NCBI GenBank assembly: GCA_964016885.1
Contig: OZ024749.1
Coordinates: 23,188,001 to 23,252,000, forward strand
Length of the DNA stretch: 64,000 nt
Direction of reading: 5' to 3'
Source of the DNA: Eledone cirrhosa
Lineage: Eukaryota
Part shown: piece by piece, positions 38,431-41,114 of the stretch
Numbering within the stretch: position 1 is the stretch's first letter
Layout of the letters: each line of letters opens with the position of its first letter
Notes under the pieces: model-generated
Seen by the model: only the letters and a program-made list of their open reading frames with translations
What the model was told of the DNA's origin: nothing
Databases searched by the model: none
Made by a program: the position numbers and the translations under genes

Positions 38431-38652
38431 AATGTAAGTATGTATGTATGCGTACATACATATATGTATACAGACGTACAGTAGCATGTATATATATACA
38501 TACAGGCACACATATATATATATGCACGCATCAGTTTACCGAACATTTATTATAATGCTCGGTTTGTTCGTTTGTAAACAAACAAACAGCCTGAATTACG
38601 CCGTACCGTGTTTAGGCAACCACGTCACCTTTTTGTTCAACACTGACACAGG

Positions 38653-38696
38653 AACGATGTACTAGTTTCAAGCTTATTAGCTATCGTCCGCACCAT
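38653..38696 (-). ncRNA. Inverted hammerhead copy with mutated core (CGGACGA)
   Basis: Minus strand atggtg CGGACGA tagctaataagctt GAAA ctag TA catcgtt. Confidence 0.65.
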
Positions 38697-39139
38697 ATAC
38701 CTTTCTGCCAGATGGTTGAACGTCCGAAAGTATATACTTTCCTTATGAAAAAAAAAAAAAAAAAAGTGACGTGGTTGCCTAAACACTGTACGGCGTAATT
38801 CAGGCTGTTTGTTTGTTTACAAACGAACAAACCGAGCTTTATAATAAATGTTCGGTAAACTGATACGTGCATATATATATGTGTGCCTGTATGTATATAT
38901 ATACATGCTACTGTACGTCTGTATACATATATGTATGTACGTATACATACATACTTACATTTAAGTAAGTGCCGCACTAAGAGTGAGAAATGAAATTTCG
39001 TTTCATTCTATTCCTTTTATCGTTTTCGGTGCGCCTGGCCGACTGAACTCACTCGATATGCAAATTAGGCTGCTCAGCCGTTAATTTTCATAAGGAAAGT
39101 ATATACTTTCGGACGTTCAACGATCTGGGAGAAAGGTAT

Positions 39140-39182
39140 ATGGTGCTGACGATAGTTAATAAGTTTGAAACTAGTACATCGT
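39140..39182 (+). ncRNA. Minimal type I HHR, GUA site
   Basis: atggtg CTGACGA tagttaataagttt GAAA ctag TA catcgt. Confidence 0.8.
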
Positions 39183-39581
39183 TCCTGTGTCAGTGTTGAA
39201 CAAAAAGGTGACGTGGTTGCCTAAACACGGTACGGCGTAATTCAGGCTGTTTGTTTGTTTACAAACGAACAAACCGAGCATTATAATAAATGTTCGGTAA
39301 ACTGATACGTGCATATATATATGTGTGCCTGTATGTATATATATACATGCTACTGTACGTCTGTATACATATATGTATGTACGTATACATACATACTTAC
39401 ATTTAAGTAAGTGCCGTGCTAAGGGTGAGAAATGAAATTTCGTTTCATTCTATTCCATTTATCGTTTTCGGTGCGCCTGGCCGACTATACTCACTAGATA
39501 TGCAAATTAGGCTGCCCAGCCGTTAATTTTCATAAGGAAAGTATATACTTTCGGACGTTCAACCATCTGGCAGAAAGGTAT

Positions 39582-39624
39582 ACGGTGCTGACGATAGCTA
39601 ATAAGCTTGAAACTAGTGCATTGT
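39582..39624 (+). ncRNA. Minimal type I HHR, GUG site (predicted poorly cleavable)
   Basis: acggtg CTGACGA tagctaataagctt GAAA ctag TG cattgt. Confidence 0.7.
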
Positions 39625-40021
39625 TCCTGTGTCAGTGTTGAACAAAAAGGTGACGTGGTTGCCTAAACACTGTACGGCGTAATTCAGGCTGTTTGTTTAC
39701 AAACGAACAAACCGAGTATTATAATAAATATTCAGGAAACTGATACGTGCATATATATATGTGGGCCTGTATGTATATATATATACATGCTACTGTACGT
39801 CTGTATACATATATGTATGTACGTATACATACATACTTACATTTAAGTAAGTGCCGCACTAAGAGTGAGAAATGAAATTTCGTTTCATTCTAATCCATTT
39901 ATCGTTTTCGGTGCGCCTGGCCGACTGAACTCACTCGATATGCAAATTAGGCTGCTCAGCCGTTAATTTTCATAAGGAAAGTATATACTTTCGCACGTTC
40001 AACCATCTGGGAGAAAGGTAT

Positions 40022-40064
40022 ATGGTGCTGACGATAGCTAATAAGCTTGAAACTAGTACATTGT
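40022..40064 (+). ncRNA. Minimal type I HHR, GUA site
   Basis: atggtg CTGACGA tagctaataagctt GAAA ctag TA cattgt. Confidence 0.8.
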
Positions 40065-40460
40065 TCCTGTGTCAGTGTTGAACAAAAAGGTGACGTGGTT
40101 GCCTAAACACTGTATAGCGTAATTCAGGCCGTTTGTTTACAAACGAACAAACCGAGCATTATAATAAATGTTCAGTAAACTGATACGTGCATATATAAAT
40201 GTGTGCCTATATGTATATATATACATGCTACTGTACGTCTGTATACATATATGTATGTACGTATACATACATATTTACATTTAAGTAAGTGCCGCACTAA
40301 GAGTGAGAAATGAAATTTCGTTTCATTCTAATCCATTTATCGTTTTCGGTGCGCCTGACCGACTGAACCCACTCGATATGCAAATTAACCTGCTCAGCCG
40401 TTAATTTTCATAAGGAAAAGTATATACATTCGGGCGTTCAACCATCTTGCAGAAAGGTAT

Positions 40461-40503
40461 ACGGTGCTGACGATAGCTAATAAGCTTGAAACTAGTGCAT
40501 TGT
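40461..40503 (+). ncRNA. Minimal type I HHR, GUG site
   Basis: acggtg CTGACGA ... GAAA ctag TG cattgt. Confidence 0.7.
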
Positions 40504-40903
40504 TCCTGTGACAGTGTTGAACAAAAAGGTGACGTGGTTGCCTAAACACTGTACGGCGTAATTCAGGCTGTTTGTTTGTTTACAAACGAACAAACCGAGC
40601 ATTATAATAAATGTTCGGTGAACTGATACGTGCATATATATATGTGTTCCTGTATGTATATATATACATGCTACTGTACGTCTGTATACATATATGTATT
40701 TACGTATACAACACATACTTACATTTAAGTAAGTGCCGTACTAAGAGTGAGAAATGAAATTTCGTTTCATTCTATTCCATTTATCGTTTTCGGTGCGCCT
40801 GTCCGACTGAACTCACTCGATATGCAAATTAGGCTGCTCAGCCGTTAATTTTTATAAGGAAAGTATATACTTTCGGACGTTCAACCATCTGGCAGAAAGG
40901 TTT

Positions 40904-40946
40904 ACGGTGCTGACGATAGCTAATAAGCTTGAAACTAGTACATCGT
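40904..40946 (+). ncRNA. Minimal type I HHR, GUA site
   Basis: acggtg CTGACGA tagctaataagctt GAAA ctag TA catcgt. Confidence 0.85.
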
Positions 40947-41114
40947 TACTGTGTCAGTGTTGAACAAAAAGGTGACGTGGTTGCCTAAACACTGTACGGC
41001 GTAATTCAGGCTGTTTGTTTGTTTACAAACGAACAAACCGAGCATTATAATAAATGTTCGGTAAACTGATACGTGCATATATATATGTGTGCCTGTATGT
41101 ATATATATACACAC

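What the first reader, a model, noticed from the sequence alone, without database searches (positions are those of the whole stretch)
38431..41110. Second, diverged hammerhead array with Penelope-style inverted 5' copy; substitutions preserve the ribozyme
Seen: ~441 bp units homologous to array 1 but with many diagnostic differences. Within the HHR most changes are structure-neutral: core N7 U>C (CUGACGA), loop AACA>AAUA, and G-U wobbles in helices I and II. The array begins with an inverted partial unit joined through an A-run to a 5'-truncated direct unit. Known: inverted 5'-truncated plus tandem copies is the typical PLE insertion structure. Inference: two subfamilies inserted independently ~20 kb apart, under selection for ribozyme structure.
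Basis: partly seen in the sequence, partly recalled or inferred. Interest (0 to 1): 0.85.

Follow-up and report, generated by a model that had tools for sequence, protein, structure and literature searches.

The report
Ribozyme jumping repeat carrying U6-like promoter
This is one insertion of a 442-base repeat, with over a thousand close copies in the genome, that holds a predicted self-cutting RNA (hammerhead ribozyme) and was likely pasted into TA runs by a Penelope-type retrotransposon; each unit also carries a close match to an element upstream of the host's U6 small-RNA genes, which would let the repeat start its own transcription.

Summary
There are 5.3 direct 442-bp units with a minimal type I hammerhead (HHR), joined head-to-head through an 18-A run to an inverted partial copy, all between (TA)n runs.

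It is a non-coding Penelope-like element (non-LTR retrozyme). The subfamily has 1,420 HHR matches in the genome; related families have 40,322. In 27 sister loci, 22 have the same inversion, and 45 of 51 arms end at two sites about 56 bp apart, the PLE 'tail' signature.

'Substitutions preserve the ribozyme' fails for this array. HHR positions differ no less than the rest (11/270 vs 42/1822), and 3 of 6 copies carry a core or cleavage-site change. Selection shows only between families (9 of 14 pairs compensatory; core invariant).

The spacing is about 5 bp shorter than the host's and the element is also a hairpin arm, so promoter function is about 60%. Cleavage and expression are untested; no autonomous partner was found.

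The parts
38010..38430 (.). (TA)n run on the left, inferred target
   Evidence: sister arms abut (TA)n in 44 of 51 cases
38429..38751 (-). Inverted arm, unit positions 66-386; its 3' end is at the family's upstream end site
38653..38697 (-). HHR of the inverted arm, with core change U4>G (predicted inactive)
38748..38765 (+). 18-A junction; at least 8 A are in neither arm; not a poly(A) tail, since it lies between two 5' ends
38760..39019 (+). 5'-truncated direct unit u0 (unit positions about 183-442), no HHR
39020..40783 (+). Four full units u1-u4 (442, 440, 438, 444 bp), 3.9-5.7% different from each other
40784..41111 (+). Last unit u5, ending at unit position 328 in the TA-rich internal part
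39057..39075 (+). Element matching the -78 element of host U6/U6atac/MRP/tRNA-Sec genes; repeated at 39499, 39939, 40377, 40821; also the 5' arm of a predicted hairpin
39100..39105 (+). TATA-like box 43 bp after the start of that element (host spacing 47-49); predicted start about 39130
39139..39183 (+). HHR in u1: core intact, A17, two extra wobbles in helix II and one in helix I; predicted cut after 39176
39581..39625 (+). HHR in u2 with G at position 17 (predicted uncleavable)
40021..40065 (+). HHR in u3: core intact, A17, two extra wobbles in helix I
40460..40504 (+). HHR in u4 with G at position 17 (predicted uncleavable)
40903..40947 (+). HHR in u5, identical to the subfamily consensus
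39406..39461 (+). 56-bp 'tail' between the two recurrent 3' ends (unit positions 386 and 442), with a short hairpin
41096..41413 (.). (TA)n-rich run on the right
16830..18249 (+). Array 1: three units of sister subfamily A1, differing from each other by 1-4 bases
50416..50866 (.). Third insertion of the family (another subfamily): inverted plus direct arm, both truncated 3' of the HHR, between (TA)n runs

Best explanation
The array is one insertion of a dispersed, non-coding 442-bp repeat that holds a predicted dimer-acting hammerhead ribozyme and was likely copied into a (TA)n run by the reverse transcriptase-endonuclease of a Penelope-like element, from RNA that the unit likely transcribes from its own U6-type promoter element. 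Steps: (1) inferred, about 60%: the element plus TATA-like box starts transcription about 47 nt upstream of the HHR cut site; polymerase unresolved. (2) inferred: read-through into the next unit gives an RNA with two HHRs that pair through the palindromic helix III and release a 442-nt monomer containing the promoter; linear multimers or a circle serve as template. (3) inferred from shown end structure: a PLE protein nicks both strands of (TA)n and primes two cDNAs at unit positions 386 and 442; the truncated cDNAs are joined head-to-head, here with added A. (4) shown: the units of this array have diverged with no sparing of the HHR; the shared, mutually incompatible variants suggest later unequal exchange or conversion (inferred).
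For: Dispersed family: 1,420 matches to the subfamily HHR pattern and 40,322 to the wider pattern vs 2 control. In 27 best-hit loci: 22 head-to-head inversions, 0 tail-to-tail; 45 of 51 arms end at unit 373-387 or 432-443; 44 of 51 abut (TA)n; 5' starts are scattered; 15 of 22 junctions have 1-10 nt overlap and 6 have 1-8 added bases. This matches PLE structure (PMC8557442 passages) and the two RT start sites, tail and both-strand extension shown in vitro (PMC11167929). HHR: 9 of 14 pairs change on both sides across 14 variants (1/500 shuffles; covariation 0.489 vs at most 0.149 when slid). The cut-to-cut monomer folds with z=-6.4. Promoter: ten family copies score 13.2-23.3 on a matrix from seven host promoters (leave-one-out 13.6-25.6; background maximum 12.2 in 608,710 sites; 19 Pol II-type or RNase P upstream regions at most 6.9). 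The 12-mer is the longest identical run between families A2 and B, which are 63% identical overall, and family D has it in three repeats.
Against: No autonomous PLE sharing sequence with the unit was found in 80 loci of two PLE families or 12 further PLE-fragment regions. The tail is 56 bp, not 30-40. In a second set (loci with G17) only 8 of 21 had the inversion and 11 of 33 arms ended elsewhere. Element-to-TATA spacing is 42-44 vs 47-49 in all seven host genes, and the other arm of the hairpin is also fully conserved between A2 and B (11/11). The host set was chosen for having the element: 14 other U6 and 7 other U6atac hits lack it (taken to be pseudogenes, not shown). Isolated HHRs fold weakly (z +0.6 to -1.7) and none in the three-helix form. 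A preprint saw cleavage in only 1 of 9 Xenopus retrozyme dimers. This array's right end is atypical.
Confidence: 0.75

Rival explanations
1. Same PLE-mobilised retrozyme, but the conserved block is an RNA hairpin (for example the site the PLE protein binds just 3' of the priming sites), and transcription is read-through from outside; the U6 likeness comes from a common octamer word.
For: The block folds as a hairpin (z=-1.9) and both arms are conserved between A2 and B. In the tandem RNA it lies 38-73 nt 3' of the main end site, and in the anole PLE the RNA needed extends about 55 nt 3' of the start sites. The spacing departs from the host's. A review says metazoan retrozymes seem to lack promoters (PMC7761336).
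Against: The forward arm is almost invariant while the reverse arm changes in subfamilies A3 and A4. The match extends past the octamer to 19 columns and is followed by a TATA-like box in all six (sub)families aligned. Family D triplicates the forward word. The two roles can coexist.
Confidence: 0.3
2. The unit is a solo pseudo-LTR left by an autonomous PLE, and the array grew in place by unequal crossover, like a minisatellite; the tandem form needs no RNA intermediate.
For: Units of this array are 3.9-5.7% apart and share variants in incompatible patterns. Long arrays show recurring shared variants. This route is discussed in the 2026 preprint.
Against: Sister insertions hold unit-to-unit junctions yet end at fixed sites in (TA)n, often in both arms, so the tandem junction was in the template. 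Several arrays have identical or near-identical units. No ORF-bearing parent was found.
Confidence: 0.12
3. The array itself is under selection for ribozyme function.
For: 8 of 11 HHR changes keep pairing as G-U.
Against: C>T in a G-C pair gives G-U by default, and 6 of the 8 are at two CpG sites. The HHR diverges no slower than the rest, and 3 of 6 copies have core or position-17 changes. Genome-wide such changes sit at about 2-3% each: G8>A in 29 of 1,420, G17 in 39 and U16.1>C in 28 matches.
Confidence: 0.04
4. Assembly artefact.
For: No long reads were examined; flanks are low-complexity.
Against: Each unit has its own 3-14 differences from consensus, and the same layout recurs on many contigs.
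Confidence: 0.02

Closest known systems
Metazoan non-LTR retrozymes (PMC7229834; PMC7761336; bioRxiv 10.64898/2026.07.22.740005)
   Same: Tandem units of a few hundred bp, type I HHR, low GC, no ORF, strongly self-paired monomer, thousands of copies; U-U at the base of helix II as in axolotl HHR_Amex2.
   Different: No TSD discernible (TA target). The insertion ends carry explicit PLE marks (two end sites, head-to-head inversion). A U6-type element is present where the review sees no promoter. Circular RNA not shown here.
EN+ Penelope-like elements (structure: PMC8557442; mechanism: anole Poseidon, PMC11167929; minimal HHRs: PMC4209133)
   Same: 5' truncation, partial tandems, inverted 5'-truncated copy, two 3' ends, TA-microsatellite bias, minimal HHR with palindromic helix III.
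   Different: No RT/GIY-YIG ORF; tail 56 bp rather than 30-40; subfamily A has U-U where G10.1-C11.1 is typical (family B has G-C); no parent pLTR found.
Newt satellite 2 and schistosome Sm-alpha (second-hand passages in PMC2220036 and PMC6765202)
   Same: Tandem HHR repeats with their own promoter in each unit (snRNA-type Pol II in newt; Pol III in schistosome), the upstream unit serving the next.
   Different: Here the element matches the host's U6-class genes, not its U1/U2 class, with altered spacing. The primary newt paper could not be read, so its elements were not compared.
Host type-3 Pol III promoters (U6, U6atac, RNase MRP, tRNA-Sec of G000)
   Same: Same 12-19 bp proximal element followed by a TATA-like box.
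   Different: Spacing 42-44 vs 47-49; family D also fits the host U1/U2 matrix (score 12.5, leave-one-out 8.8-29.9), subfamily A2 does not (-1.5).

Membership tests
Type I hammerhead ribozyme | Conserved core and three helices | tested here: met
   11 core bases intact in 5 of 6 copies; compensatory helices I and II across families; no Rfam hit
Type I hammerhead ribozyme | Non-G base at position 17 (rule recalled) | tested here: inconclusive
   Met in 4 of 6 copies of this array; family variants use A, U or C
Type I hammerhead ribozyme | Self-cleavage | not testable with these tools
   No RNA holder listed
Non-LTR retrozyme | 150-450 bp tandem units with type I HHR, GC under 50%, non-coding | tested here: met
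   442 bp; GC 0.38; no frame of 150 aa or more except those arising from the TA flank
Non-LTR retrozyme | Highly self-paired monomer | tested here: met
   -143.9 kcal/mol, z=-6.4, folded as linear RNA
Non-LTR retrozyme | [quoted passage not shown] | tested here: inconclusive
   Intact core plus non-G17 only in u1, u3 and u5, which are not adjacent; array 1 has three consecutive
Non-LTR retrozyme | Expressed circular RNA | not testable with these tools
   contigs only, none on record as RNA
Non-LTR retrozyme | Target-site duplication; no PBS/PPT | tested here: inconclusive
   (TA)n flanks hide any TSD; PBS/PPT not searched
Penelope-like element (insertion mode) | 5' truncation, partial tandem, inverted 5'-truncated copy | tested here: met
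   22 of 27 and 8 of 21 loci
Penelope-like element (insertion mode) | Two 3' ends defining a 30-40 bp tail | tested here: inconclusive
   Two end sites in 45 of 51 arms, but about 56 bp apart
Penelope-like element (autonomous) | RT plus GIY-YIG ORF | tested here: not met
   no such ORF continuous with a unit in the loci examined
Penelope-like element (derivation) | Homology to the pLTR of an autonomous PLE | tested here: inconclusive
   None in 92 PLE loci or regions sampled; the genome holds many more PLE families
Type-3 Pol III promoter | Host proximal element | tested here: met
Type-3 Pol III promoter | TATA box at the host spacing | tested here: not met
   Box present, but 42-44 vs 47-49 bp
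Type-3 Pol III promoter | T-run terminator, none internal | tested here: inconclusive
   First run of 4 or more T lies 4 nt past the main 3' end in A2 and near the end in A1, A3, B1; earlier in one B2 and one D copy; one copy each, no statistic
Type-3 Pol III promoter | Activity and polymerase | not testable with these tools
   needs RNA or reporter data

The most novel reading that the evidence does not exclude
A superfamily of Penelope-dependent retrozymes (tens of thousands of copies, at least three deep families) has captured the host's external U6-class promoter, which a retroposon normally loses on copying, and keeps it by tandem or rolling-circle amplification with ribozyme trimming. 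The 5-bp shorter spacing would retune it for read-through. This gives a SINE-like element with an upstream rather than internal promoter, and genomic end structures that tie retrozymes directly to PLE two-site, two-strand priming.
Probability: 0.45. Interest if true: 0.7.

Novelty: new variant of a known kind. Interest (0 to 1): 0.5.

Why it matters
How animal retrozymes are transcribed and what mobilises them are open questions in the papers read: a review infers read-through with no promoter and no motif pointing to a partner, and a 2026 preprint argues PLE origin from co-occurrence and pLTR trees. This family offers a specific promoter candidate and insertion ends that fit PLE biochemistry, both directly testable. 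As a by-product the comparison defines this animal's two snRNA promoter classes, useful for guide-RNA expression. The array itself is a decaying copy and unremarkable.

Tried and rejected
Rfam: no HHR model hit.

Autonomous partner: the window's RT+GIY-YIG PLE (33057-34346, minus), the EN-fragment family at 1018-1776 and 12 other PLE-fragment regions show no unit homology beyond nested insertions. One weak profile hit in L092 (E=4.5e-4) falls across coding sequence and a TA run and was not pursued.

A-to-I editing of the template (prompted by a recalled, untested resemblance of the genome to cephalopods): rejected for A2. A>G is 10.5 vs T>C 10.2 per 1000 (that set of 21 units included 3 misassigned ones), and G17 is 39 vs U16.1>C 28 in a palindromic context (p about 0.2 by hand). 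A1 shows 18 vs 10 but is confounded by substructure.

CpG symmetry test at N7/G8: 7 C>T vs 2 G>A among the first 100 of 1,420 matches; confounded by sister subfamilies, not used.

L1-style twin priming on one RNA: the 5' start of one arm does not follow the 3' end of the other.

Expression: no RNA holder listed; four contig runs laid gave no start or end information.

The shuffle statistic for T-run depletion was not obtained, so the Pol III terminator reading stays descriptive.

Earlier-findings look-ups returned nothing. The primary newt paper is not held.

Full report
OBSERVATION. The sequence shows a (TA)n run (38010-38430), an inverted partial unit (38429-38751), 18 A, a 5'-truncated direct unit, four full units and a last partial unit running into another TA-rich run. 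Unit position 1 is set at 39020. The inverted arm covers 66-386 and the direct arm starts near 183 and stops at 328. Array 1 (16830-18249) is about 84% identical, and a third, HHR-less inverted-plus-direct insertion lies at 50416-50866. Each full unit holds a 45-nt minimal type I hammerhead: 6-7 bp helix I, a 4-bp helix II under a U-U pair, a palindromic 6-nt helix III region and a GUA cut site. Rfam does not detect it.

FAMILY. The window is G000:C9:23188001-23252000 in a 3.0-Gb genome. A general HHR pattern has 40,322 matches against 2 for the control; the A2 subfamily pattern has 1,420. Fetched loci resolve subfamilies A1-A4, a family B (467 bp, 267 of 427 aligned positions identical to A2) and a more distant family D. 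In 27 best-hit A2 loci (L002-L030 without two duplicates), 22 have a head-to-head inversion and none a tail-to-tail one. Of 51 arms, 21 end at unit 373-387, 24 at 432-443 and 6 elsewhere; 44 abut (TA)n; 5' starts are scattered. Junctions show 1-10 nt overlap (15), blunt joining (1) or 1-8 added bases (6). A second set chosen by a G17 pattern is less tidy: 21 of 27 loci had A2 arms, 8 had inversions, and 22 of 33 arms ended at the two sites. This is the structure described for PLEs (PMC8557442, passages). It fits the anole PLE, which nicks and extends both strands of AT-rich DNA and starts reverse transcription at two internal sites that bound the tail; there the HHR is protein-assisted and not needed for insertion (PMC11167929, parts 1-2 of 4). 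The A-run lies between two 5' ends next to a T4 tract of the inverted arm, so it is best read as slippage or untemplated addition at a cDNA end (inference). The class is described as non-LTR retrozymes (PMC7229834, parts 2-3 of 6 and passages; PMC7761336, passages; bioRxiv 10.64898/2026.07.22.740005, parts 1-3 of 5). Minimal dimer-acting HHRs are described in PMC4209133 (parts 1-2 of 4).

SELECTION. Against the A2 consensus the array differs at 11 of 270 HHR positions and 42 of 1,822 others (TA-rich block excluded; p=0.095). Eight of the 11 are C>T wobbles, two give G17 and one is U4>G. That G17 and U4 changes block cleavage is recalled knowledge; GUA as a natural cut site is in PMC1636495 (passages). 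Genome-wide, G8>A is in 29 of 1,420 matches; G17 and U16.1>C patterns give 39 and 28 (patterns differ slightly, so rates are approximate). Copies therefore appear to decay freely. Between lineages the picture differs. A2 and B differ at 0 of 11 core, 15 of 26 helix and 117 of 296 outside positions. On 14 variants that I picked from 82 distinct ones, 9 of 14 pairs change on both sides, beating 499 of 500 shuffles and all slid controls. The rows are related and were collected with a core-anchored pattern, so this is support, not a p-value; one row (family C) is not shown to be homologous outside the HHR. The array's units are 3.9-5.7% apart with incompatible shared variants, whereas array 1 units differ by 1-4 bases and several other arrays by 0-3. 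Array 2 looks older and internally shuffled (inference).

PROMOTER-LIKE BLOCK. The longest identical run between A2 and B is a 12-mer containing the octamer at unit 38-49, followed 43 bp on by a TATA-like box; family D repeats it three times. I fetched host small-RNA genes by Rfam search. The element sits at -77 to -80, with TATA at -30/-31, upstream of three distinct U6 promoters, one U6atac, the one MRP and the two top tRNA-Sec hits. It is absent from 14 other U6 and 7 other U6atac hits, which mostly have altered starts or repeat flanks and which I take as pseudogenes. It is absent from all 19 U1, U2, U5, U11, U12 and RNase P upstream regions examined, 17 of which have a different short word at about -55 to -66. 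A 19-column matrix from the seven scores ten family copies 13.2-23.3 (leave-one-out 13.6-25.6), against a maximum of 12.2 in 608,710 background sites from 76 PLE loci (four loci holding family copies left out; TA masked). Against the reading: spacing is 42-44 vs 47-49; the block folds as a hairpin whose other arm is also conserved; and propagation needs read-through past T-runs. Spacing is conserved in insect Pol III promoters (PMC1761439, abstract start and passages); that a few bp shorter marks Pol II promoters in Drosophila is recalled. A start 30 nt after the box would lie 47 nt before the cut in A1, A2 and A4, and the first run of four T in A2 falls 4 nt past the main 3' end (single copies, no statistic). 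Precedents exist: newt satellite 2 with an snRNA-type Pol II promoter and schistosome repeats with a Pol III promoter (second-hand). Searches (listings only) turned up no report of a U6-class element in a retrozyme. The library lacks most subscription journals and Repbase, and no supplements were read, where such families may already be listed.

PARTNER. Not found. The window's own PLE (RT and GIY-YIG by Pfam; 24,096 candidates; intact 878-aa ORF in L106) also ends in (TA)n but shares no sequence with the unit; nor do the other families sampled.

VERDICT. A real feature of a known class: about 0.9 that it is a PLE-mobilised retrozyme, about 0.6 that the block is a promoter. The U6-class element and the explicit PLE end structure make it a new variant worth a bench test. 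Interest 0.5.

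Noticed in passing
window 33057-34346 (-), 3' UTR to about 32150: 5'-truncated autonomous-type PLE (RT, GIY-YIG) of a young family: 24,096 candidates, best 104 at 96-100% aa identity; ends in (TA)n; only a degenerate HHR-like hairpin in its 3' UTR.
   Followed up: partly
window 1018-2960 (+): EN-end fragment of a second, diverse PLE family (52,431 candidates) whose 3' UTR has an HHR variant with C in place of U4 near 2868.
   Followed up: partly
window 23970 (+), 35007 (-), 28871 (-), 45925 (-), 46934 (+), about 41420 (+): Further HHR-like motifs of other short TA-flanked repeat families.
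   Followed up: no
L172-L200, L219 (G000:C1:5738000-5752800): Family B array of about 31 units (14 kb) in one arm plus a short opposite arm, both ending in (TA)n; 29 units compared differ by 2.3 substitutions on average.
   Followed up: partly
L281-L283, L328, L336, L363, L364 vs L301-L303, L316-L321, L369, L372-L378: Two distinct snRNA promoter classes in this genome, both with a TATA-like box at about -30; the RNase P RNA upstream region (L337) has the U1/U2-type word, not the U6-type element.
   Followed up: partly
L287, L288, L290-L293: In some units of the C19 U6 tandem cluster a repeat of about 190 bp sits between the upstream element and the gene.
   Followed up: no
L330, L341, L340, L294: U6 and U6atac copies whose 5' ends directly abut TA-rich microsatellite runs, and L332 where U6atac is joined to an inverted family D copy; possibly retro-copies made by PLE machinery.
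   Followed up: no
window 7699-9018 (-), 10113-13141 (+), 5221-5718 (+): Fragments resembling other non-LTR retrotransposons; RT confirmed by Pfam at 11718-12575, no Pfam hit at 7702-8313.
   Followed up: no
window 26294-28168 and about 59000-64000: 73-bp minisatellite (25.5 copies); a strongly C/A-skewed stretch at the window's end.
   Followed up: no
runs X5, X6: Contigs from two other coded organisms hold diverged pieces of the unit at low depth; not interpreted.
   Followed up: no
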